Source of the DNA: Escherichia phage JH2 | Sequence record: KF055347 | Direction: 5' to 3' (one strand) | Length of the DNA stretch: 64,000 nucleotides | Shown: piece by piece, positions 3,363 to 43,041 of the stretch | Layout of the letters: every line of letters begins with the position of its first letter | Position numbering within the stretch: the first letter of the stretch is position 1 | Translations under genes and position numbers: made by a program | The notes under the pieces: generated by a model | The model's input: only the letters and a program-made list of their open reading frames with translations | What the model was told of the DNA's origin: nothing | Databases searched by the model: none

Positions 3363-3457
3363 TTTTGAATCTCCTAGTTTAAGGACTTGATTTAGTGGTA
3401 AAGCTCTTTATCTGGGGCTTAAGATATCAACTTTTAAGCCCCTTGTAAAGTACTTTA
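3363..3457 (-). promoter_or_regulatory. early intergenic cassette type A, GGGGCTTAA..TTAAGCCCC variant
   Basis: ggggcttaagatatcaacttttaagcccc followed by ttgtaaagtactttat. Confidence 0.55.
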
Positions 3458-3730
3458 TCAGATTAAATTGCCAGTTAATGATAAGTGCATTTTATAGCCT
3501 TTTTTGGTAAAAACGTTCACTTTACCGAGTGATTTTACACCTTTAAAAATGTTGTTTGAACTGCGTTTTAAGGTTAGTTGCTTATCAGCTTTCACGCCCC
3601 ACCTTACAGCAGTTTGTTTTCCGTTGTCAACCACTTTTCCGCATAACTTTTTAGCCATAACGCGAGCGTCATCACGAGTCTTTGCAGTAATTACAACGTT
3701 TTTGATAATAGCCATTTTTAAGTTCTCCAA
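3458..3730 (-). CDS. hypothetical early protein
   Basis: 90-aa ORF, basic. Confidence 0.45.
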   Translation of the reverse strand: MENLKMAIIKNVVITAKTRDDARVMAKKLCGKVVDNGKQTAVRWGVKADKQLTLKRSSNNIFKGVKSLGKVNVFTKKGYKMHLSLTGNLI

Positions 3731-4185: not shown

Positions 4186-4273
4186 TTTAGAATCTCCTAG
4201 TTTAAGGTAAGTTAGTAAAGCTCTTTATCTGGGGCTTAAGATATCAGCTTTTAAGCCCCTTGTAAAGTACTTT
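4186..4273 (-). promoter_or_regulatory. early intergenic cassette type A
   Basis: repeat copy, ggggcttaagatatcagcttttaagcccc. Confidence 0.55.
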
Positions 4274-4480
4274 TTATATATCGTAATAGTAAACCGCTGT
4301 CTGTTTTATATGTCGCTTTGTATTCTTTGTTAGGTAGCAATTAGAGTTAATTGCCGTTTCTACATAGTTGCAATAATCAGCTTCTGATATTCTACGCCAT
4401 GCGCCGCACACTTGCATATAAAAACGTTTTGCCTTTGTGTTAACGTTGGTTGTAACCATCAATTCGCGACTGTACATCAT
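4274..4480 (-). CDS. hypothetical early protein
   Basis: 68-aa ORF; first gene downstream of the repeat-rich non-coding region. Confidence 0.4.
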   Translation of the reverse strand: MMYSRELMVTTNVNTKAKRFYMQVCGAWRRISEADYCNYVETAINSNCYLTKNTKRHIKQTAVYYYDI

Positions 4481-13261: not shown

Positions 13262-15043
13262 TTAAAGCTGCTTGTCAATATTATTTCGAATATCACCAAG
13301 AGTTGTGTAACCAAACTGCTCAGAGTCACTAAAGACTAAGCGTAAAGTACAAGCTGGATGTTCAAGCGCATCTGCAAAGCTCTGGAAACCATAGCCATCT
13401 ACAGCTTTCAGCTTATCACCATCCCACATAGGCGCTACACCACCAAAAGCAGACTTCTTAACACCACTATCTGTTTTAGGGTCTTTTGCAAGCATAATCT
13501 CTTTGCCACCAATACTTGCAAGAGTTGCTTTGACAGCAAATGCAAAGGTGTCACGAGTCATATACTGGTAAGTGTAAGAGCCTACACCAAATACTACGTT
13601 AGAGCTTGCAAAACCCATTTCATACAAACGCTTCAGGATTTCGTTTGCACGTTCCAACGTGATAGAGTCACCATAGATAAGTCCAATGTGCTCATCCAGT
13701 ACCTTAAAACCTTTAGAGTTGATAGTCCCTCCAAAGATGTTATACAGGGTCTTAATAGCCCCATCAATCTCTGCTACAGGACGTGTTACAACGTTTGCAG
13801 AACCAACCATATAAGCATTTTTCAACAGCACTGTATCAGCAACTTCAAAGTCTTCTCTGTCAACAACCATTTCGTAGCCTTCTGACAGTAGCCATCCAGC
13901 AATACCATAGTTGATATCCTCAAGCTTCATGTTCAGAACAGCATTCAGCATTGTGTCGCTGGCTTCCAGCTTGCTTAGGTGTTCGTAATAAGCCTTTTTA
14001 GCACACTCTAAGTGGATTGCTTTATAACCTGTGACAATATGTACAGGGTCGCCAGAGTCAGGACGAATTACCAGTTTGCCATCACGTTCCATAATCTCTT
14101 TACGAAGTGCTGGTAAGATTTCTGATACAGTTCTCCAGAAATTATAAGTGTCTGAAACAACACTTGCAATACCTGTTGGGTAAGTTTCTGTTAAGAAACG
14201 ACGGAAGGTTTGTAACTCACCTTTAAAGCGTCTTTCTTCTTCAATCAACTCATTACCACCTTCCCAAGCAATGTTTGCACACATTACAGAGTGTTCGGTG
14301 GCTGGTACAGAGCTACCAATATCAGAGATTGGGTAGGACTGTCCATAGATGCGTTTAGCTGTATACACAGCAGGGAAGCTATCAGTTCCTTTAAAGCTGG
14401 TTAAGTGGCCTACAGCGTTAAATGCGTCATCGGTAAAGCCGGACATACCACGCATAGCAAAATCATGGCACTGATAAGGCAAATGCAAGTCGTTGTCACA
14501 AGTAAGGTCAGACCACTTCTTACAGATACGTTTGTAGTGCAATGCAATAGTTGCAATGGTACAAGCCTTCCAAATCTCAGCAGAGAAAGCATCTTCCAGA
14601 TACCCAGCTACCCAATGGAAACCTGAAACAGTGTTCTGGAAGACAATCATTGGTACACGCATAGGGACAACTGTGCCTTCTTCTACAGCGTATACTTCAA
14701 CTGGTAGATAACCTAAATCGTGGAGTGCTTCCCAATGTTCTCGACCAATAGCATCTTTACCCAGAACACCATTCATGACTTCTAAGATTTCGTCAATTGC
14801 TTCTTTTTTGTCACGTTCAAAGAAGGTAGCGTTCCAGTGGTCTATCAAGTAATCTTTAACAAAGCGTTGAATACCAAAAGCCACTACACCGTCAATTGCT
14901 AAAGGGCTGTTAAACCATTTATCGCTACGTGGTGTCAGGTTAAACATCAAGTACTCTGTTGCACTAGGGTACTGGTAAACATGACCAGATTTGTAAGCAT
15001 CTGCATTAAGACCTGCTGGTACTGCGTAAAGTGACTTACTCAT
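13262..15043 (-). CDS. nicotinamide phosphoribosyltransferase-family protein (NadV-like; possible Namat-type enzyme)
   Basis: 593 aa; family-level resemblance to NAMPT/NadV; encoded directly next to a PRPP-synthetase-family gene. Confidence 0.7.
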   Translation of the reverse strand: MSKSLYAVPAGLNADAYKSGHVYQYPSATEYLMFNLTPRSDKWFNSPLAIDGVVAFGIQRFVKDYLIDHWNATFFERDKKEAIDEILEVMNGVLGKDAIGREHWEALHDLGYLPVEVYAVEEGTVVPMRVPMIVFQNTVSGFHWVAGYLEDAFSAEIWKACTIATIALHYKRICKKWSDLTCDNDLHLPYQCHDFAMRGMSGFTDDAFNAVGHLTSFKGTDSFPAVYTAKRIYGQSYPISDIGSSVPATEHSVMCANIAWEGGNELIEEERRFKGELQTFRRFLTETYPTGIASVVSDTYNFWRTVSEILPALRKEIMERDGKLVIRPDSGDPVHIVTGYKAIHLECAKKAYYEHLSKLEASDTMLNAVLNMKLEDINYGIAGWLLSEGYEMVVDREDFEVADTVLLKNAYMVGSANVVTRPVAEIDGAIKTLYNIFGGTINSKGFKVLDEHIGLIYGDSITLERANEILKRLYEMGFASSNVVFGVGSYTYQYMTRDTFAFAVKATLASIGGKEIMLAKDPKTDSGVKKSAFGGVAPMWDGDKLKAVDGYGFQSFADALEHPACTLRLVFSDSEQFGYTTLGDIRNNIDKQL

Positions 15044-15089
15044 ATTTTATATCTCTCTCAAAATGGGGCTTTTAAGCCCCTATAAAGTT

Positions 15090-15986
15090 TTAATCAAGGT
15101 TTGCTACAGTAACTTGGGCATAATGTGTTAAGCCACGGTCTTTAGCTTCCCCTAAAGAGTTTGTAGTGTAGATGTGGTCAATACCATTGTCAAGTAAGTT
15201 TTCAACACCTTTAGAGAAGATACCATGTGTTACATAGAGTTCCACACGTTTTGCACCTGCTTCACGAAGATGTTTAGCTGCTTCTATGAAGGTTCGACCA
15301 CCATCACAGATATCATCCAGAATCATGACGGTTTTATCTGTCAAATCAACATCATCAAGGATTCGCATACCAGTAATTTCACCAGTCTTAAGGTTACGTA
15401 CTTTAGACATTGTGATGTATGGCTTATCCACCTCTTTAGCAGTCTCTTCAGTCTTCTTAGCTGCACCTGCATCTGGGGCTACCAAGAAATCAATGCGTGG
15501 GTCACTTGCAAAGTGTGCTGCCACATCTTTTTGCTTCATGCTCTGAAAGCACTTAAATAAGTTTTCTGCAACATTACTGTGAGGGTCAAGAGCACATACT
15601 GCATCAAAGCCCATTGCATTAACGAGGTTGGCAAAAGCTTTCAGTGCTGCTGAATCACCTTTGAACATATGGCGGTCATATCGAGCATTCGGTAAGAACC
15701 CGAAAACAACGGTTTTCATCGCTGATTTATATGGAACAAGACTGTCAATGGCATCCTTAGCCAAAGCTAATGCAAACAGTGTATCTTTATCATATCCCTG
15801 CACAGTAAGTATAACATTGTCAATCTTACCAGCATTACGCTCAGTAAACTTAACAAAATCTTCAGAGAAGTTTCCACCAATTTCTCCAGATGGGAATTGG
15901 ATGATATTAAATTTTTCTGTGTGGAAGAATTTCTCTTGTGCGGTGACAACGGCTTCAATAATAGTTTTCATAGTTTTCTCTCTCAA
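15090..15986 (-). CDS. ribose-phosphate pyrophosphokinase-family protein (Prs-like; possible Adps-type enzyme)
   Basis: 298 aa; FPSGEIGG resembles the Prs FPDGE motif; VMILDDICDGGRTF is a PRPP-binding loop. Confidence 0.7.
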   Translation of the reverse strand: MREKTMKTIIEAVVTAQEKFFHTEKFNIIQFPSGEIGGNFSEDFVKFTERNAGKIDNVILTVQGYDKDTLFALALAKDAIDSLVPYKSAMKTVVFGFLPNARYDRHMFKGDSAALKAFANLVNAMGFDAVCALDPHSNVAENLFKCFQSMKQKDVAAHFASDPRIDFLVAPDAGAAKKTEETAKEVDKPYITMSKVRNLKTGEITGMRILDDVDLTDKTVMILDDICDGGRTFIEAAKHLREAGAKRVELYVTHGIFSKGVENLLDNGIDHIYTTNSLGEAKDRGLTHYAQVTVANLD

Positions 15987-30625: not shown

Positions 30626-30697
30626 TATTTAAACCTCTATCTCAATTTATGAAGAGTACCAATTCTAATTTGTTGATACTCTATTGTCAAACATTAA

Positions 30698-30847: not shown

Positions 30848-31137
30848 GATATTCTCCGATATACTTGATATTCAAACCCATTTTCTTTAATTATAAACAG
30901 CCAACTAATATTATGCTGAGGCAGTGTAATGATGACTGTAATCGTGCTTTGGTAGAAATCTTCTTTTATCTCAACTTCTCCATTGCATTTCATGAGGAGC
31001 ATTCTATAGAACCTATCAACCTTTGTCAAACACTCTTCATGAAATTTATTTAAACTTTTTTCTTCAAAGAAGGGTGTGAACCCCTCTCTTTTATAACTGT
31101 CACTCAGTTTCAAATGGGCAGTCATCTGCATCCTCAC
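30844..31137 (-). CDS. hypothetical protein
   Basis: 97-aa ORF; 38-nt overlap with the primase-helicase 3-prime end. Confidence 0.4.
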   Translation of the reverse strand: MRMQMTAHLKLSDSYKREGFTPFFEEKSLNKFHEECLTKVDRFYRMLLMKCNGEVEIKEDFYQSTITVIITLPQHNISWLFIIKENGFEYQVYRRIS

Positions 31138-34091: not shown

Positions 34092-34904
34092 TTAGTGCAG
34101 TTGGCCACTGGTAATCTGTGAATGCTCTTTTTCAGCCATAGCTGAGATTTGCTTCACAAAATCATCACCGAAGTTAATGCGTAGCTTCTCTTCAATGATT
34201 GAAGCGCCAATGTTTACCAAAACATCATTGATTGCTTGCATACTTACACCGCCAGTCATCTCCTCAACGAACTCAATGGTTACCCCCAACATCTGAGAAA
34301 GTTGGATTAGTGCAACGATATTCATCATTGTAGAGATAGCTGGAATCATCAGAGCAACCTTCACCTGTAGTGGTTCTACATCAGCTACAGAGTCATCTTT
34401 CACAGCTTCTTCTAAAGAGTCTTTAGTTTGCTGGATAATCTCTTGGATTCGTGGGTTTAACTCTTCTACACCCCAATCAAGTTTTTCATATCGTGACAGC
34501 TTCTCTTCCATTCGCTTCTCAAGAGCAGCCATAACAGAACTTGTTGATGAAATTATCATGGAAACTAACTCATTATCACCTAATGAGAGTAACAAGTCCT
34601 TTTCTTCAGAGTTAAGGGAGATATAGTCATTTTTCTGCATCTCATAAAAAATGAACTCTGCAAGAGCATCAACACCTACAACGATAGATGCTAAGGCAAG
34701 TGTTTTGTCAGACAGCATCATATTAACCTGTTCTGCAAAAGCACCGTTATCAGACTTATCTTTAGGCAAGTTATAGCTTGCAGGCATAAACTGCTCTGTG
34801 TAGTTGTTTCCACGAAGAATCATAGCCATGCTTTCTACGGCATTGATTAAGAAAGCTTCGTCAACACCTTTTTCTTTAAGCATCTGGTCTACAGTAGTAT
34901 TCAT
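34092..34904 (-). CDS. hypothetical protein
   Basis: 270-aa ORF. Confidence 0.5.
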   Translation of the reverse strand: MNTTVDQMLKEKGVDEAFLINAVESMAMILRGNNYTEQFMPASYNLPKDKSDNGAFAEQVNMMLSDKTLALASIVVGVDALAEFIFYEMQKNDYISLNSEEKDLLLSLGDNELVSMIISSTSSVMAALEKRMEEKLSRYEKLDWGVEELNPRIQEIIQQTKDSLEEAVKDDSVADVEPLQVKVALMIPAISTMMNIVALIQLSQMLGVTIEFVEEMTGGVSMQAINDVLVNIGASIIEEKLRINFGDDFVKQISAMAEKEHSQITSGQLH

Positions 34905-34905
34905 A

Positions 34906-35328
34906 TTATTTCTCTCTCAGTTGGTTAAGTTTCTTTCTAGAACATTTTAAGTTTTCAGATGAAGAAAAGTCAAGCGTCTTTTCAGAACGTGGATAGTAAT
35001 GTCTATCCCAAGAAGTTTCAACATCGTTAATCAGTGACGCTAGACTACACAGGTCTGTACCACTTTGCAACCTCTTTTTAAGAGAATCTAGTAAAGCAAC
35101 TGTGTCTTTAGCTTTACGTCTCGCTGTAGCAACATCTTTCATATGCTCAAATACAGAGCATTTTAAGTCATCTTCGTAGTTTTCAGACAACTCTATTTCA
35201 TGTTGTATATCAACCATTCTCCTGTGATGGTGAGCATATTCCCGTTGAGCAGCAATGTCAAGTTCTTCCAACTTCTGCAAAGCCCTAACAAAGTCAGCTA
35301 TGTCTGGGTGAACAAACATTTTCTGCAT
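34906..35328 (-). CDS. hypothetical protein
   Basis: 140-aa ORF; last gene before the divergent intergenic region. Confidence 0.5.
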   Translation of the reverse strand: MQKMFVHPDIADFVRALQKLEELDIAAQREYAHHHRRMVDIQHEIELSENYEDDLKCSVFEHMKDVATARRKAKDTVALLDSLKKRLQSGTDLCSLASLINDVETSWDRHYYPRSEKTLDFSSSENLKCSRKKLNQLREK

Positions 35329-35585
35329 GTAAGCCTCTTTTAAGTAACTATTAAGTTTTAATCTTTTATCTTAACGTATTCTATACGTTATACTTTAAAG
35401 CTTTTTAAAAGCTATTAAATAATCTTTTAAGAGTTTTAAAGTATCTGTATAGTTAAACTGTTAAGTAACCTTTTAAGTAAAAACCCACTTCGCAAAGATT
35501 AACACCTTGTCAAGTACATTGTCAACTTGCTTTTTATAATTTTTTGCAGTAATGTATGTGGTTAATGATTTTAGAGGGAGTAAAA
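35329..35585. promoter_or_regulatory. divergent AT-rich intergenic control region
   Basis: 257 bp between divergent gene blocks; repeated CTTTTAAG motifs, duplicated TTGTCAA, TATAAT hexamer; GAGGGAG RBS before the polymerase start. Confidence 0.45.
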
Positions 35586-37728
35586 ATGGAAAACGTAGAT
35601 TTTAAAAACTTACATTTAGTTGGCGATACAGAAACTGATGGTTTACTCCTTGAGTTCACTAAAGTGCACGTAATGGCTTTCGCAGACTATAAATCTGACG
35701 ATGAAGAGCCACCTGTATGGGTCTTTACAGATGAGCCTATCCTCGGCCACAAGTATACCAAGTACATTAAAGGTGGTTTGCGTGAAGGTGTCGAGTTTGC
35801 GTTAAAGGCAAAACGGCTTTGCATCCATAATGGTCTGGGGTATGACTGGTGGGTTTTCAATCACATTGCACCTGATTTGTGGAACTTTGATAATCCAAAG
35901 TGTAAACCGTGGAGTAATTTCTTTCAGGATTCTCTTATCCAGTCTCGTGTTCAGTGGATGGATAGACCAACTCCAAAGGGTTATAAAGGTGCTCATGGTT
36001 TGGCTGCATGGGGTGCTCGTGTTGGTGTACGTAAACCAGAGATTGAACATTGGGGTGTGTGGAATGCAGAAATCTTCACTCGTGTTGTAGAAGATATCCG
36101 TATTAACGCCAAAACTAAACGTGCACTGGATAATGAATATCTCAAGCTGAAGAAGTGTGGCGTAGATACTTATGAAACCTACATGCGAGCTAAAGAAACA
36201 TCTTTCTGGATGAGTCAACAAGCTATCAATGGTTGGAAAGCTGATAAAGAACTTATGGAGTTCCATGTAAAGGAACTTGACAAGTTGACTAATGAGCTTG
36301 CTTCAGAAGTTGAACCACATCTTCCTCCAACTATTAAGACCAAAGGTAAAGTCACTGGAGAAGAGTTTGCAAAAGCTTGGAATGAGTATGTTGAAGCATT
36401 CGGTCATGCAGATGGACTGAAGAGAATTACCAAGTACCCTAAGACAAAGTATCGTCAGCAGGTACGTAACGGTGAGATGCAGACATATGAAATTAAGCCA
36501 TTTGGTAAGCCAACTACAAAGATTTTTAACATTGAAAAGCGGAATTGCTATACACCAACCAACTCTGTAACTGGTGAAGAGTACAAGGAAGGTTTTGTAG
36601 CAATGAAGGATGCTCGTGCAATTTGCAATGAGTTGAATGCAAAGATTGGTAAGAAATGCAAAGACTGGAAGCCAGTAAAAACAGTTAAAACTGTGAAGTA
36701 CTATAACAGTCATGTTGTGAACCACTTTGAGCTTGAGTCAAGTCGCTACACAGGTTTGATTGATGCACCATATACACCAATTGAGTTTGAAGTTTCTCGA
36801 ATGACTCAGGTGGCTGTTGTGAAGGACTACTTGAAATCAGTTGGTTGGATTCCTGATGACTGGAACTATAAGAAAGACTCTGATGGTCGTCCTGTTAAGG
36901 TTTGTCGTTTCAAAGACAACAAAAAGATGATTACCAAACATCCTAAATGGGATGAGATGGTTGAACGGTGCGGTTTGAGTTATGTTGAACATGAAGGTGT
37001 ACAGTACATTGAGCATAACTGGTCTGTTAAGAAGTACACAGATTTGCTTGAACCTTGCTTAATCCGTACTTCACCAAAACTTACTGAATCATCTTATGAT
37101 ACGATTGAAGGTGAGCTTGGGCAGAAGATTGCAAAATACTATACCTTGATGCACAGACGCAGAACTATTGAGAACTCAAAGGATGATGAAAAAGGTTGGT
37201 TAAACCAGATTCGTCCTGATGGTCGCCTTAGTGCTGGTGCAATGGTGTTTGGTACTTCAACTGGACGTATGACACAATATGGTATTGTAAACGTACCGTC
37301 TGGCGCTGCTGTCTATGGAGCACCCATGAGGGAAGTTTGGACTTGTGAAGAGGGTACTAATATTGTTTCAGCCGACATGAATAGCGCCCAACTTGTGCTG
37401 CTGTGTAACTTTATGGGTGATAAAGATTTCACTAAAGCGGTGACAGAGGGTAAAGAAGAGGTTGAGTTTGTCAAACAAGAGGATGGTAGATACTATTGCA
37501 AACATTTTAACCAGTATCTAAACCCAGCTATTGACAAGTATTTACATTATGATTCTGAAAATGACTTATACGTGGTGTACTCAGGGACTGATGCACATAC
37601 TTTAAACAGTATCTACTTCAGCCTTAATAAAGAGGAAGACATCTTGACATGTCGAGCTACTCAGGATGCAAATCTTCTTCAAGAAATTAGTAAAGGCCGT
37701 AAGAAAGCCAAAAATGGCATTTATGCGT
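35586..37728 (+). CDS. DNA polymerase family A, exon 1 (3-prime-5-prime exonuclease plus polymerase through first half of motif B)
   Basis: Exo I motif LVGDTETDGL; ends ..RKKAKNGIY inside motif B; start moved to ATG 35586 with RBS. Confidence 0.75.
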
Positions 37729-38530
37729 CAGTGGCGCATGTAAAACGTTGTGAATTGCTGGAAGCCTAAGTCTGTAAAGATATGGTAATCAGCAGCGAAG
37801 TCTCTGTTAGGACTCCTAAAACAAAGGAGAGAGACAATGGCAGGTTACGAAGAGAGATTATGCACTGAGTGTGGTACGGAGTTTAAACCATATCAATACA
37901 ATCAGAAACGGTGCAGAAGTTGTGTATTAAAGTTTGACAGAAGGGCAGAACACAGGGTTCTTACTAAGAAATGCCCTAGTTGTGAGAAGGTGTTCATGCC
38001 GAGAACAGCAAGGCAAGTTTATTGTTCGTCACATTGCGGTGAGAAAGGTAGAGTTAAGAATTACTACCTAAGAACATATGGATTGGAAAGAGAAGAGGTT
38101 GAGTCTCTACTCCGTGACTGTGATTACAAATGTCAAATTTGTGGCGGCGAAGGTTTTATCATGAATGGTTCACGACACAAGGCTAAACTTGTTGTTGACC
38201 ATGACCATAAAACCGGAAAGGTAAGAGGTATGTTATGCCACAATTGCAACAGAGCTTTGGGGTTGCTTGCAGATAGTGTTGATAACATGCAAAGAGCGAT
38301 TGACTATCTAAGCAAATGATATAACTATAGAGATTCCTAACAGAGAAACGTTCAGAGACTATCGAAAAGCATACTTAACGTATGAACTGAGTAGAGTAGG
38401 GTGGTAAGCTAATGACCATCCCCAAGTGCAACGGTAGCATCACTGCTACGTGATATAGTCCGACACTCCGTAGAAATGCGGAGAAGTTCATAAGAGAACT
38501 GGTACACCTTGCGAGTGTATTGACCAGATG
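37729..38530 (+). mobile_element. group I intron in the DNA polymerase gene carrying an EndoVII-type HNH ORF
   Basis: polymerase motif B split (..KNGIY / ..LFGAGDEKFAK); exon 1 ends in U at 37728; intron ends in G at 38530; conserved GATATAGTCC at 38452-38461; boundaries inferred. Confidence 0.65.
37837..38319 (+). CDS. intron-encoded HNH endonuclease, endonuclease VII-like
   Basis: 160 aa; VVDHDHKTGKVRGMLCHNCNRALG typical of EndoVII-type HNH; several CxxC pairs; good RBS. Confidence 0.65.
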   Translation: MAGYEERLCTECGTEFKPYQYNQKRCRSCVLKFDRRAEHRVLTKKCPSCEKVFMPRTARQVYCSSHCGEKGRVKNYYLRTYGLEREEVESLLRDCDYKCQICGGEGFIMNGSRHKAKLVVDHDHKTGKVRGMLCHNCNRALGLLADSVDNMQRAIDYLSK

Positions 38531-39087
38531 TATTGTTCGGGGCTGGCGATGAGAAATTTGCTAAGACGATTAAAGCATCTACAACTGAGGAAGGTGCTTT
38601 AACTAAGCAAACATACTTTGTACGTCTCCCTAAAATTAAGAAGTTGATAGATAATTTAGAAGCAGACTTCAAAGCCACTAAGAAGGCTCTTGAAGAGGTA
38701 TTTGGTAAGACTGCCGCAATCTCTAAAGGGGGGTTTGTAAAGGTTGCTGGAGCTTGGTTGTGGTGTAAATCTCCACATAAGTTATTGAATTATTTGCTTA
38801 TGGGTTCGGAAAGTCAGGTTCAGAATGAAGCCATCAACCTCGCTTGTAGAAGAACTTGTGAAGAGGGTCTTACAAAGTTGAATGGTCGAAAACCAGCTAT
38901 TGGCGCTAGATTGCTTTTAGCATATCACGATGAGAATAGTTGGGAGTGTCCAGAAGACATGACGCAGGATGTTAAAGCAGTAATTGACTGGATGTATGGT
39001 CAAGCATCAAGAAATTTAGGGCTTAAGGAGGAAACTCTCGTAACTGGCACTGGTAAAGTTGGTAAAAATTGGCTTGAGGTACACTGA
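38531..39087 (+). CDS. DNA polymerase family A, exon 2 (second half of motif B through C-terminus)
   Basis: begins LFGAGDEKFAK aligning with T7 gp5 ..YGAGDEKIG; no ATG start, consistent with an exon. Confidence 0.7.
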
Positions 39088-41909: not shown

Positions 41910-42043
41910 GAGCAGCATAAACCAACGGGTACTCACCAGCATCACTTAAGAGTCTTCTAAAAGGGTTTTTAAGTGAGGTTCAGTGTTGTATGTTTTGGTA
42001 TGGTTTGGTAAGGTAGGGTTTGGTATGGAAGGATGGCAGTAGC

Positions 42044-42107
42044 CTTATAAAAATCTGCCAAATAAGCTATAAAATCTGTTGACAAGTCAGGTGTTATAGC
42101 TTATTTT
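42044..42107 (+). promoter_or_regulatory. promoter/operator candidate: TTGACA flanked by a perfect 12-bp inverted repeat
   Basis: AATAAGCTATAA (42061-42072) and TTATAGCTTATT (42094-42105) bracket TTGACA (42079-42084); direct repeats of TATAAAA(A)TCTG; TATTTT 17 nt after the -35. Confidence 0.45.
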
Positions 42108-42151
42108 TATACTCAATGTAATACAAAATTTAATATAACTTTGAGGTCATT

Positions 42152-42535
42152 ATGAAAAAGATTTTATTAGCTGCTGCAATGGTTATGGCAATGAATTTAC
42201 CAGTCAATGCAACAGAACTCCCCAATGTGGACTTATCAGGTGTTCCAGAAGACACTTGCCAGATTGTAAAAGGTGTTGCTCTATCTAATGGTGAGTTACT
42301 TAAACCAATCTCTGAAGAGTCTTTGACAGAGATGACTGATAAGGTAACTGACTATCAGTATCGCGTTCTTGCAGAGTATTTCCTGCAATCTGCAAATATT
42401 AAAGAGAAACACCATGATGATATTGATGTACAGGCTATGCTCAACCATCGTATTCAGTTTAAAGAAGATTTGATGCAAAAAGCTATGTACGGTGTTGAGT
42501 ATTTCTTAGAAAACAGAAGCTGCACAGGTATTTGA
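42152..42535 (+). CDS. hypothetical secreted protein
   Basis: 127 aa; Sec-type signal MKKILLAAAMVMAMNLPVNA. Confidence 0.5.
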   Translation: MKKILLAAAMVMAMNLPVNATELPNVDLSGVPEDTCQIVKGVALSNGELLKPISEESLTEMTDKVTDYQYRVLAEYFLQSANIKEKHHDDIDVQAMLNHRIQFKEDLMQKAMYGVEYFLENRSCTGI

Positions 42536-42536
42536 T

Positions 42537-42749
42537 ATGGCTCTTAAAAAGTTACATCCCAGAAGCGGTTATGGTAAGATAATTGATGATACAGATGGCT
42601 TTACAGTCTTTACAGTTATCTGTCAAGATGATTCACAGATTGAAAAGGCTCTTGACGATTATCTTAATGATGAACGTGAAAAGGTTAGGGCTACAAACAT
42701 AGATTCATTGATTGACACTTCACGTAAACGGAAGAAGAAAGATGAATGA
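42537..42749 (+). CDS. hypothetical protein
   Basis: 70-aa ORF, Lys-rich C-terminus. Confidence 0.4.
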   Translation: MALKKLHPRSGYGKIIDDTDGFTVFTVICQDDSQIEKALDDYLNDEREKVRATNIDSLIDTSRKRKKKDE

Positions 42750-43041
42750 GGTTTTTGACCCTTATGCTCCACAAGATGATTGGGAGGCTGACAGAGAGGC
42801 TGAAATGGAGAGTTATATTTGTCCAATGGATGTAGACGAAATGAGAGATTTCGTTGCACATCGTTTTAAGAGAGAGATTAAATCCAGAGGTCTTTCTCAA
42901 GAGCAAGTTGCTAAAATTTGTGGTATCTCTCAGGCTCGTGTATCCAACATAATCAATCTCACTGGTAATGTCTCTCTTGAGTTTATGTTGGAAGTATGTG
43001 AAAAATTTGGTGTTAATTTTAATTTAAGGTTGGCAGATTAA
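42742..43041 (+). CDS. helix-turn-helix (XRE/Cro-like) DNA-binding protein
   Basis: RGLSQEQVAKICGISQARVSNIIN is a classic HTH; acidic N-terminal region; start at internal ATG 42742. Confidence 0.55.
   Translation: MNEVFDPYAPQDDWEADREAEMESYICPMDVDEMRDFVAHRFKREIKSRGLSQEQVAKICGISQARVSNIINLTGNVSLEFMLEVCEKFGVNFNLRLAD

What the first reader, a model, noticed from the sequence alone, without database searches (positions are those of the whole stretch)
35329..35585. Divergent AT-rich control region between the minus-strand block and the DNA polymerase gene
The 257-bp gap has reiterated CTTTTAAG motifs (at least three copies), a duplicated TTGTCAA, and a TATAAT hexamer, but no clean sigma70 spacing. 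It is the only divergent junction in the window, so it probably holds back-to-back promoters and could also be a replication-associated AT-rich site.
Basis: seen in the sequence. Interest (0 to 1): 0.4.

Follow-up and report, generated by a model that had tools for sequence, protein, structure and literature searches.

The report
Divergent promoter region with palindromic leader
This 257-bp gap in a Felix O1-like phage genome is the control region from which the DNA polymerase genes and the primase-helicase genes are probably transcribed in opposite directions; its repeated CTTTTAAG words are the arms of a conserved 96-bp palindrome downstream of the leftward promoter, so it is a fairly ordinary regulatory region with one detail not described before.

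Summary
The window is a Felixounavirus genome. The gap is the ORF96 (DNA polymerase)/ORF97 junction of phage Felix O1, where divergent promoters were assumed in 2010 but not located.

Their reading changes:
- TTGTCAA x2 is TTGACAA on the minus strand. The right copy is the -35 of a good leftward sigma70 promoter (TTGACA-N18, TGn, TAATCT; 35525-35496). This promoter is conserved in four genera of Ounavirinae.
- A weak rightward promoter (TTGCTT-N17-TAATGT; 35527-35555) abuts it back to back. Its hexamers are conserved, while its spacer and leader are the most variable parts of the gap.
- TATAAT lies in that spacer and is not conserved.
- The CTTTTAAG-type words form a 96-bp imperfect palindrome (35370-35465) in the predicted leftward leader. 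It folds far better than shuffles and shows two compensatory pairs.

The AT-rich 150 bp holding the palindrome is the least stable duplex in the window. A paralogous module sits at the genome's other divergent junction in a relative.

Best reading: back-to-back host-type promoters plus a structured 5' leader. An operator array or a transcription-activated origin is not excluded. No start site has been mapped. Modest interest.

The parts
35329..35585 (.). Whole intergenic gap (Felix O1 ORF96/ORF97 junction): 257 bp, 25.6% G+C
   Evidence: Identity to the window is 98-100% within Felixounavirus and 79-85% in Suspvirus/Mooglevirus. Third codon positions of the flanking genes are 82-96% and 53-66% identical.
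35520..35525 (-). P_L -35 hexamer, TTGACA (the right-hand TTGTCAA of the finding, read on the minus strand)
   Evidence: The promoter scores 12.5 bits, rank 22 of all positions on both strands of the window. All 6 columns are invariant in 33 haplotypes of 3 genera. Kolesnikvirus has TTGACA at the same place.
35505..35513 (-). Second CTTGACAAGG copy (the left-hand TTGTCAA), inside the P_L spacer; role unexplained
   Evidence: 8 of 9 columns are invariant. It has no -10 partner at 16-18 bp. The same 25-bp double element, 24/25 identical, occurs at the second divergent junction of pEP20.
35496..35504 (-). P_L extended -10: TGn (35504-35502) plus TAATCT (35501-35496), 18-nt spacer
   Evidence: The pattern TTGACA-N15-TGNTANNNT has 2 hits in the window against 0.08 expected. 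T1, A2, T6 and the TG are kept as TAGTCT in Mooglevirus and one Suspvirus-like contig (L031). The same promoter is annotated in GenBank records AYO145A and ASO1A.
35488..35490 (-). Predicted P_L transcription start (6-8 nt after the -10); about 160-nt leader to the ORF97 ATG
   Evidence: Inferred from the promoter geometry; not mapped.
35527..35532 (+). P_R -35 hexamer, TTGCTT, 1 bp from the P_L -35 (back to back)
   Evidence: All 6 columns are invariant. In Kolesnikvirus the rightward -35 also abuts TGTCAAG: TTGTAT-N18-TGaTATGAT in Hena2.
35533..35549 (+). P_R 17-nt spacer; contains the non-conserved TATAAT (35535-35540)
   Evidence: Only 29% of columns are invariant, while the length is constant. 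TATAAT becomes GAAACT, GAAGAT or CAAAAA in other genera.
35550..35555 (+). P_R -10, TAATGT (TA[A/G][T/G]GT in relatives); weak score of 6.1 bits
   Evidence: T1, A2, G5 and T6 are invariant.
35573..35588 (+). Polymerase Shine-Dalgarno AGAGGGAG (35573-35580) and ATG (35586-35588)
   Evidence: The SD is invariant in all 8 columns. The 17 nt before it are 11% invariant.
35370..35465 (.). 96-bp imperfect palindrome centred near 35417. Helices: 35370-75/35460-65, 35382-86/35447-51, 35393-99/35435-41, 35401-03/35429-31, 35407-13/35421-27
   Evidence: the repeat finder pair I1. The consensus fold has 27 pairs, 99.8% of cells paired in 20 haplotypes and 2 compensatory pairs; slid controls give 22-56%. 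Fold z = -4.35 (minus RNA), -4.90 (plus RNA) and -3.70 (DNA), with 0 of 200 shuffles as good.
35372..35390 (.). Local 8-bp hairpin TAACGTAT-tct-ATACGTTA, an alternative to the outer helices
   Evidence: the repeat finder pair I20. It changes to ATGTAT-gtt-ATACAT in the Moogle clade, which keeps the pairing.
35337..35344 (+). CTTTTAAG copy 1; on the minus strand it overlaps the ORF97 Shine-Dalgarno (CTTAAAAGAGGC-N4-ATG)
   Evidence: The first gene at the second junction has the same context, CTTATAAGAGGC.
35424..35431 (+). CTTTTAAG copy 2; inner right arm of the palindrome
   Evidence: Invariant in 3 genera. Lies in helices 4 and 5.
35467..35478 (+). AACCTTTTAAGT, which includes CTTTTAAG copy 3; about +12 to +23 of the predicted P_L transcript
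   Evidence: The identical 12-mer lies at the same distance (35-36 bp) from the double TTGTCAA element at the second junction.
35335..35485 (.). Least stable 150 bp of duplex DNA in the window
   Evidence: -1.075 kcal/mol per step against a mean of -1.281 (sd 0.043); the next lowest is -1.153. It is also the minimum in the 87 kb read from the genome of pEP20.

Best explanation
The gap is the transcription control region of the replication module of a Felix O1-like phage. Two host-type (sigma70) promoters sit back to back, with their -35 hexamers 1 bp apart.

Leftward promoter P_L. It reads TTGACA, an 18-nt spacer holding TGn, then TAATCT (35525-35496). It is a good extended -10 promoter that reads towards ORF97, dNMP kinase and the primase-helicase.

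Rightward promoter P_R. It reads TTGCTT-N17-TAATGT (35527-35555). It is weak and reads into the DNA polymerase gene through a leader of about 25 nt.

The AT-rich 160 bp. This stretch holds the CTTTTAAG words. It is not a promoter but the predicted transcribed leader of P_L. It is built as a 96-bp imperfect palindrome whose arms are CTTWWAAG-type words.

Most likely mechanism. The palindrome acts as a long RNA hairpin in the 5' leader that controls processing, stability or translation of the leftward operon. The closest comparison is the RNase III hairpin between the T7 early promoters and gene 0.3.

Shown: the sequence elements, their conservation pattern, the covariation, and the paralogous module at the second junction. 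Inferred: the start sites, that the leader is transcribed, and everything about what the hairpin does.
For: Identity of the locus. The window is a Felixounavirus and the gap is the ORF96/97 junction.

P_L.
- It ranks 22nd among all positions on both strands of the window.
- Its strict pattern has 2 hits against 0.08 expected.
- The critical bases are kept in Suspvirus and Mooglevirus.
- Kolesnikvirus has TTGACA-N17/18-TACATT at the same place.
- GenBank records of two relatives annotate the same site.

Conservation follows promoter logic. Both -35 hexamers are invariant in all 6 columns and the -10 hexamers in 67-83%. The P_R spacer is 29% invariant, the P_R leader 11%, and the SD 100%.

The gap evolves more slowly than synonymous sites.

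The palindrome.
- z = -4.35 and -4.90, with 0 of 200 shuffles as good.
- 27 pairs, 99.8% of cells paired across 3 genera.
- Two pairs have changes on both sides (A:U to U:A, and C:G to U:A); slid controls give 22-56%.

The second divergent junction of the relative pEP20.
- It shares the 25-bp double TTGTCAA element, the 12-mer AACCTTTTAAGT at the same distance, and the SD context.
- Its leftward leader also has a hairpin of about 100 nt, z = -3.09.
- One pair there goes from C:G to U:A through U:G, which pairs only on the minus-strand RNA.

The long structured stretch lies on the leftward side at both junctions.
Against: - No transcription start, RNA-seq or footprint data exist for this phage group in the searched library.
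- P_R matches only 3 of 6 bases in each hexamer and scores 6.1 bits. It may need an activator, or the polymerase may be transcribed from elsewhere, for example from the invariant TATAGT at 35448-35453.
- Most stem positions never vary, so the covariation rests on two or three evolutionary events.
- The palindrome folds at least as well on the plus strand and as DNA, so the strand and the molecule are not settled.
- Invariance of the stem sequences suggests sequence-specific recognition as well as pairing.
- An RNA hairpin has no need to be AT-rich, yet this is the least stable duplex in the genome.
- The conserved second TTGACAAGG is not explained by this model.
- The promoter score matrix used approximate frequencies recalled from the literature.
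Confidence: 0.55

Rival explanations
1. Operator array. The CTTWWAAG palindromes, and the palindromic CTTGACAAG in the P_L spacer, are DNA binding sites for a dimeric regulator that switches the two divergent control regions during infection. The regulator could be phage-encoded (for example the Cro/C1-type HTH protein at 42744-43041, or ORF97 itself) or a host protein. This can coexist with the promoter model.
For: - CTTWWAAG is an 8-bp palindrome. It has 42 sites in the 87 kb read from the genome of pEP20, and the two divergent junctions are the two densest 260-bp windows (4 each, next 2).
- The stem sequences are nearly invariant rather than merely paired.
- An HTH_3 protein is encoded in the rightward block.
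- The second TTGACAAGG is conserved but has no -10 partner, and it sits between the -35 and the -10, where repressors commonly bind.
Against: - The covarying partners of helix 1 (CTTAAC/GTTAAG changing to CTTTAC/GTAAAG and CTTTAT/ATAAAG) are not both good CTTWWAAG sites. Their correlated change is explained more simply by pairing.
- At the second junction the intermediate state is a U:G wobble, which means something only for RNA.
- No binding data exist, and no known host-factor consensus matches (IHF, CRP, DnaA and Fis were checked).
Confidence: 0.25
2. Transcription-activated replication origin. P_L fires into the AT-rich palindrome, which serves as the unwinding element. The transcript or the opened duplex lets the phage primase-helicase and polymerase load, as at the T7 primary origin or T4 oriF/oriG.
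For: - 35335-35485 is the least stable 150 bp of duplex in the window and in a whole related genome.
- A conserved promoter points into it.
- It lies between the polymerase gene and the primase-helicase operon.
- The large AT-rich palindrome also folds as DNA (z = -3.7).
- Coding-strand GC skew is lower in the block that a fork from here would meet head-on (0.080 against 0.127 and 0.162).
Against: - The same motif set, double -35 element and leader palindrome recur at the second divergent junction, which lies next to tRNA and structural genes. This fits transcription control better than a unique origin, although phages can have several origins.
- There are no iterons of 17-22 bp and no good DnaA box.
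- The GC skew follows gene orientation and can also be explained by gene content.
- No replication data exist for Ounavirinae in the searched library.
Confidence: 0.17
3. Nothing special: an AT-rich low-complexity spacer in which short words recur by chance, with the flanking genes expressed by read-through from distant promoters.
For: Three copies of some 8-mer occur in 10.5% of shuffles of the gap. The promoter scanner finds no more sites here than in shuffles (5 against 2.8 +/- 1.8).
Against: - The gap is far more conserved than synonymous sites.
- Conservation is patterned exactly as promoters predict.
- The palindrome beats 200 of 200 shuffles.
- Read-through is impossible at a divergent junction, because both flanking blocks begin here.
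Confidence: 0.03

Closest known systems
Felix O1 ORF96/ORF97 intergenic region, and the promoter features in GenBank records of phages AYO145A and ASO1A
   Same: It is the same locus, 98-99% identical. Whichard et al. 2010 assumed divergent early promoters here. The AYO145A and ASO1A records annotate a minus-strand promoter at the position of P_L.
   Different: The 2010 paper reported finding no promoter-like sequence here. The GenBank features are pattern matches, and the two records disagree on the plus-strand promoter. Not described in the papers searched and read here: the abutting -35 hexamers, the palindromic leader, its covariation, and the paralogous module at the second junction.
Second divergent junction of the same phages (Felix O1 genes 40/41, with promoter P41); outside this window
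   Same: It shares the 25-bp double TTGTCAA element (24/25), the AACCTTTTAAGT word at the same distance, the CTTWWAAG clusters, a leader hairpin of about 100 nt and the SD context.
   Different: Its rightward promoter is strong (TTGACT-N17-TACCAT) and lies about 25 bp from the double -35 element rather than abutting it. It flanks tRNA, packaging and lysis genes, not replication genes.
T7 early control region: host-polymerase promoters A1-A3 followed by the R0.3 RNase III hairpin ahead of gene 0.3 (from general knowledge)
   Same: Strong sigma70 promoters are followed by a long imperfect hairpin in the leader of the first early gene.
   Different: There is no sequence similarity. RNase III cleavage is untested here. 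T7 has no divergent partner promoter. No RNA family matched.
Transcription-activated phage origins: the T7 primary origin (promoters 1.1A/B plus an AT-rich region) and T4 oriF/oriG (promoter plus unwinding element) (from general knowledge)
   Same: A promoter points into the most easily unwound DNA of the genome, next to the replication genes.
   Different: Origin activity is untested. The module is duplicated at a junction that has no replication genes.
Herpes simplex virus oriL: an AT-rich palindrome between the divergent DNA polymerase and ssDNA-binding protein genes (from general knowledge)
   Same: An AT-rich palindrome of about 100 bp between divergently transcribed replication genes, one of them the DNA polymerase.
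   Different: This is an analogy of layout only. No initiator binding sites were identified, and there is no evidence of origin function.

Membership tests
Sigma70 promoter, extended -10 class (P_L, minus strand) | -35 hexamer close to TTGACA | tested here: met
   TTGACA, 6 of 6, at 35525-35520; invariant in 33 haplotypes.
Sigma70 promoter, extended -10 class (P_L, minus strand) | -10 hexamer TAnnnT at 16-18 bp, preceded by TGn | tested here: met
   18-nt spacer, TGT, then TAATCT (3 of 6, with T1, A2 and T6). The pattern has 2 hits against 0.08 expected. It is kept as TAGTCT in Mooglevirus and one Suspvirus-like contig and as TACATT in Kolesnikvirus.
Sigma70 promoter, extended -10 class (P_L, minus strand) | A primary transcript starts 6-8 nt downstream | not testable with these tools
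   No start-site data found.
Sigma70 promoter (P_R, plus strand) | Both hexamers resemble the consensus at 16-18 bp spacing | tested here: inconclusive
   TTGCTT (3 of 6), N17, TAATGT (3 of 6); score 6.1 bits, rank above 1200. However, the hexamers are conserved, the spacer is variable and its length is fixed. The Kolesnikvirus counterpart has a good extended -10.
Back-to-back divergent promoter pair | Two promoters on opposite strands with adjacent upstream elements; both flanking operons begin here | tested here: met
   The -35 hexamers lie at 35520-25 (minus strand) and 35527-32 (plus strand). The strand switch is at the gap. RT-PCR transcripts of ORF96 and ORF97 are reported in PMC3185647.
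RNase III-type leader hairpin (T7 R0.3-like) | About 20 bp or more of imperfect double-stranded RNA in a transcribed leader | tested here: met
   Predicted 27-36 pairs, z = -4.35. It lies inside the predicted P_L leader. That the leader is transcribed is inferred.
RNase III-type leader hairpin (T7 R0.3-like) | Pairing maintained by compensatory change | tested here: met
   2 pairs at this junction and 1 pair, with U:G intermediates, at the paralogous junction. These are few independent events.
RNase III-type leader hairpin (T7 R0.3-like) | Cleavage by RNase III | not testable with these tools
   Needs a comparison of rnc and wild-type hosts, or in vitro cleavage.
Transcription-activated phage origin (T7 / T4 oriF type) | A promoter directly upstream of a DNA unwinding element | tested here: met
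   P_L points into the least stable 150 bp of the window and of a related genome.
Transcription-activated phage origin (T7 / T4 oriF type) | Replication initiates there | not testable with these tools
   No replication data. GC skew is confounded with gene orientation.
Iteron / DnaA-box origin (lambda or plasmid type) | Three or more direct repeats of about 17-22 bp, DnaA boxes, and an adjacent initiator gene | tested here: not met
   The longest multi-copy direct repeat is 11 nt. There is one DnaA-like site with 1 mismatch, in a non-conserved stretch. The flanking ORF97 has no known domain.
Any curated RNA family (Rfam 15) | Covariance-model match in the gap | tested here: not met
   No match in the gap up to E = 1.

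The most novel reading that the evidence does not exclude
The promoter-plus-palindrome module is the replication origin of Felix O1-like phages, possibly one of two. Host RNA polymerase firing from P_L would open the least stable, cruciform-prone 96-bp palindrome between the polymerase and primase-helicase genes, and the T7-like replisome would load there. The layout parallels herpesvirus oriL.
Probability: 0.17. Interest if true: 0.55.

Novelty: new member of a known kind. Interest (0 to 1): 0.33.

Why it matters
Felix O1-like phages are widely used for Salmonella and E. coli typing, biocontrol and therapy. How they time their transcription and where they start replication is still unknown; the 2010 genome paper says so explicitly.

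This analysis gives exact, testable coordinates for:
- the two promoters that launch the replication module;
- a conserved palindromic leader shared by both divergent control regions of the genome;
- the most easily unwound DNA of the genome.

These are direct targets for start-site mapping, engineering (for example, safe insertion sites and expression control) and origin mapping. It does not reveal a new kind of system.

Tried and rejected
- TATAAT (35535-35540) as a -10. Rejected: it has no -35 partner at 16-18 bp and is not conserved beyond the genus.
- The second TTGACA (35513-35508) as a promoter of its own. Rejected: there is no -10 at 15-19 bp, either here or at the paralogous junction.
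- CTATWAAGTTTTAATC as a phage-specific promoter consensus. Rejected: only two exact copies in the window.
- A T4 MotA-box reading of TTGCTT. Rejected on spacing: 15 bp to the -10 against the 11-13 bp known for T4 (reasoned from the sequence and general knowledge).
- A pho-box-like reading of TTGTCAA-N5-TTGTCAA. Rejected on period (12, not 11) and on position.
- Host-factor sites (IHF, CRP, DnaA, Fis). No convincing match.
- Small leader ORFs on either strand. No start codon follows the SD-like words (read from the sequence).
- CTTTACAG repeats upstream of the HTH gene as operators. Rejected: they lie in a 70-codon ORF and encode a repeated FTV.
- A metagenome scan with TTGTCAACTTGCTTTTT. Of 120 stretches, only 2 were relatives; the rest were chance matches.
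- Pairing of the leader's 5' end with the ORF97 SD (seen in the single-sequence fold). Not supported by the consensus fold.
- Literature searches for start-site or origin data in this phage group found nothing.

Full report
**What the window is.** A 4-kb stretch around the finding is 90-97% identical to about 250 Felix O1-like myoviruses of the genus Felixounavirus. The gap corresponds to the junction between ORF96 (DNA polymerase) and ORF97 (a hypothetical protein) of phage Felix O1. To the left, on the minus strand, lie ORF97, a protein annotated as minor tail protein, dNMP kinase and a primase-helicase. To the right, on the plus strand, lie a family A DNA polymerase, a DNA ligase, an HTH regulator, dihydrofolate reductase and thymidylate synthase.

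**What was already said about this locus.** The Felix O1 genome paper (PMC3185647) assumed that transcription starts from divergent promoters between genes 96 and 97. It reported finding no promoter-like sequence there, and it detected transcripts of both genes by RT-PCR. Two GenBank records of relatives carry pattern-based promoter features in the gap. I found no start-site mapping, RNA-seq or origin mapping for this phage group.

**Check of the observation.**
- The gap is 35329-35585, 257 bp. The minus-strand ATG is at 35328-35326 and the polymerase ATG at 35586.
- CTTTTAAG occurs at 35337, 35424 and 35470.
- TTGTCAA occurs at 35507 and 35519.
- TATAAT is at 35535-35540.
- G+C is 25.6% against 38.9% for the window.
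- It is the only divergent junction in the window.

Three copies of some 8-mer arise in 10.5% of dinucleotide shuffles of the gap, so the repeat count alone is not remarkable. The window-wide excess of CTTTTAAG (20 against 5 expected) comes from mixed contexts such as hairpin loops and ribosome-binding sites.

**The gap is under selection.** Against the window, the gap is 98-100% identical within Felixounavirus and 79-85% identical in Suspvirus and Mooglevirus. Third codon positions of the two flanking genes are only 82-96% and 53-66% identical.

**Leftward promoter, P_L.** Read on the minus strand, the duplicated TTGTCAA is TTGACAA. The right copy (35525-35520) is a perfect -35. It is followed by an 18-nt spacer that ends in TGT, and then by TAATCT (35501-35496). 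This is an extended -10 promoter.
- In a simple sigma70 score it ranks 22nd among all positions on both strands of the window. The matrix frequencies were recalled from the literature and are approximate.
- The strict pattern TTGACA-N15-TGNTANNNT has 2 hits against 0.08 expected.
- The tool's own scanner missed it because it requires 4 of 6 matches in each hexamer.
- T1, A2, T6 and the TG are retained in Suspvirus and Mooglevirus.
- The Erwinia phages of Kolesnikvirus have ORF97 only 44% identical in protein and a gap that no longer aligns. They still carry TTGACA-N17/18-TACATT at the equivalent place.

The predicted start is near 35489, which gives a leader of about 160 nt.

**Rightward promoter, P_R.** One base pair from the P_L -35 lies TTGCTT (35527-35532). 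Seventeen nt later lies TAATGT (35550-35555). The conservation pattern is what a promoter predicts:
- both -35 hexamers are invariant in all 6 columns;
- the -10 hexamers are 67-83% invariant, with T1, A2 and T6 fixed;
- the 17-nt spacer is 29% invariant, with constant length;
- the leader ahead of the invariant Shine-Dalgarno is 11% invariant.

TATAAT lies in that spacer and is replaced by unrelated sequence in other genera. In Kolesnikvirus the rightward -35 again abuts TGTCAAG, and there it is followed by a good extended -10 (TTGTAT-N18-TGaTATGAT). I therefore take the back-to-back arrangement as real. P_R is either weak or dependent on an activator.

**The CTTTTAAG words and the AT-rich part.** These words belong to a looser family, CTNTWAAG, with six sites in the gap. 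This is the densest 300 bp in the window. They are the arms of a 96-bp imperfect palindrome, 35370-35465, centred near 35417 (repeat finder pair I1). The five helices are listed under parts.
- The 104-nt stretch folds with z = -4.35 (minus-strand RNA), -4.90 (plus-strand RNA) and -3.70 (DNA). None of 200 shuffles does as well.
- Across 20 distinct haplotypes from three genera, the 27 consensus pairs are formed in 99.8% of cells. Registers slid by 1-3 columns give 22-56%.
- Two pairs of the outer helix changed on both sides (A:U to U:A, and C:G to U:A).
- Most pairs never vary, so this rests on few events.
- A local hairpin (35372-79/35383-90) is an alternative for part of the left arm and also keeps its pairing in the Moogle clade.
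- Kolesnikvirus has an analogous dyad with CTTTAAAG arms in the same place.
- No Rfam family matches.

CTTTTAAG copy 1 overlaps the ORF97 Shine-Dalgarno (CTTAAAAGAGGC on the minus strand). Copy 3 lies just outside the palindrome, at about +12 to +23 of the predicted transcript.

**A paralogous module elsewhere in the genome.** The relative pEP20 is collinear with the window and 96.6% identical over 4 kb. It has a second divergent junction at record positions 80055-80303, outside the window. That junction shares four things with the gap:
- the 25-bp element ACACCTTGTCAAGTAC[A/T]TTGTCAAC, 24 of 25 identical;
- the 12-mer AACCTTTTAAGT, 35-36 bp to its left;
- a 14-mer in inverted orientation;
- the Shine-Dalgarno context CTTWWAAGAGGC.

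CTTWWAAG has 42 sites in the 87 kb read from that genome, and the two junctions are the two densest 260-bp windows (4 each, next 2). The second junction also has a leader hairpin of about 100 nt on the leftward side (z = -3.09) and is 93% conserved across genera. One of its pairs goes from C:G to U:A through U:G, and the consensus structure has no A:C cell on the minus-strand RNA. This is a small hint that the leftward transcript is the folded molecule. Its rightward promoter, TTGACT-N17-TACCAT, is invariant.

**DNA stability.** The stretch 35335-35485 is the least stable 150 bp of duplex in the 64-kb window: -1.075 kcal/mol per step against a mean of -1.281 (sd 0.043), with the next lowest at -1.153. 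It is also the minimum in the genome of pEP20 (87 kb read). Coding-strand GC skew is 0.127 and 0.162 in the two blocks that leave the gap and 0.080 in the third block. That would fit forks leaving the gap, but it can equally reflect gene content.

**Interpretation.** The promoter part is well supported for P_L and reasonably supported for P_R. There are three readings for the palindromic AT-rich leader.
- A structured 5' leader RNA. This is my preferred reading. It is favoured by the covariation, by the placement downstream of the leftward promoter at both junctions, by the U:G intermediates, and by the proximity of the SD.
- An array of operators for a dimeric regulator. This is favoured by the palindromic 8-mer, the invariance of the stems and the unexplained second TTGACAAGG. 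An HTH_3 gene is available in the rightward block.
- A transcription-activated origin. This is favoured by the stability minimum and the replication-gene context. It is weakened by the duplicate module next to tRNA and structural genes, and by the absence of iterons and DnaA boxes.

The three readings are not mutually exclusive, and none can be settled without experiments.

**Verdict.** This is the early/middle control region of the replication module, already presumed in the literature. It is now resolved into specific elements, and it carries a conserved palindromic leader that I did not find described in the papers searched. It is a new member of a known kind, of modest interest.

Noticed in passing
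window 37727-38532 (ORF 37837-38319): The DNA polymerase gene is interrupted. The window aligns to the uninterrupted 2721-bp Felix O1 gene at 35557-37726 and 38533-39065, with an insert of about 806 bp between Felix positions 2170 and 2175. The insert encodes an endonuclease VII/HNH-type protein. It has a sub-threshold group I intron match at 37756-37846 (24.6 bits, E = 0.0026). It is probably a mobile intron carrying a homing endonuclease. The downstream exon is only 73% identical to Felix O1.
   Followed up: partly
L170:28355-28603 (pEP20 record 80055-80303; outside the window): A second divergent junction of the genome carries a paralogous control module: the double TTGTCAA element, CTTWWAAG clusters, a leader hairpin of about 100 nt, and an invariant rightward promoter TTGACT-N17-TACCAT. 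It is at least 99% identical in 185 phage records.
   Followed up: yes
window 35233-35261, minus strand: A high-scoring sigma70-like site (TTGACA-N17-TATGCT, rank 13 in the window) lies inside the ORF97 coding sequence. It may be an internal promoter for the genes downstream of ORF97.
   Followed up: no
window 30662-30690 and 31001-31029, minus strand: These are the two best sigma70-like sites in the window. Both read TTGACA-N17-TAGAAT and lie about 340 bp apart, upstream of small minus-strand ORFs next to the primase-helicase gene. Many other top sites also lie on the coding strand of the minus-strand block, which suggests wide use of host-type promoters.
   Followed up: no
window 3406-3463 and 4223-4280: A repeated intergenic element of about 50 bp, ctttatctGGGGCTTAAGatatca[a/g]CTTTTAAGCCCCttgtaaagtacttt, whose 9-bp arms form a hairpin. 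The two copies lie in gaps between small minus-strand genes.
   Followed up: no
window 15080-15095 and 35348-35363: The 16-mer CTAT[A/T]AAGTTTTAATC occurs exactly twice in the window. Each copy lies just upstream of a minus-strand gene start (ORF97, and the nicotinate phosphoribosyltransferase gene 13262-15043). At 15069 it sits beside a GGGGCTTTTAAGCCCC hairpin.
   Followed up: partly
window 42744-43041, plus strand: A Cro/C1-type HTH protein (Pfam HTH_3, E = 5e-11) is encoded in the rightward block. It is a candidate regulator of the palindromic words in the gap.
   Followed up: no
window 34092-34904, minus strand: A gene named 'minor tail protein' in many records and in PHROGs (phrog_4251) sits between ORF97 and dNMP kinase, inside the replication module, and has no Pfam domain. 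The name looks doubtful.
   Followed up: no
window 42019-42169: This is the second least stable duplex stretch of the window. It lies upstream of the gene at 42152 and has a TTGACA-N17-TATTTT site at 42079.
   Followed up: no
NC_041922.1 (Salmonella phage Si3), record end 84300-84419: The Si3 record ends in the middle of the second divergent junction, and the match is split over two places. The deposited genome ends there could be arbitrary, or could mark a physical terminus.
   Followed up: no
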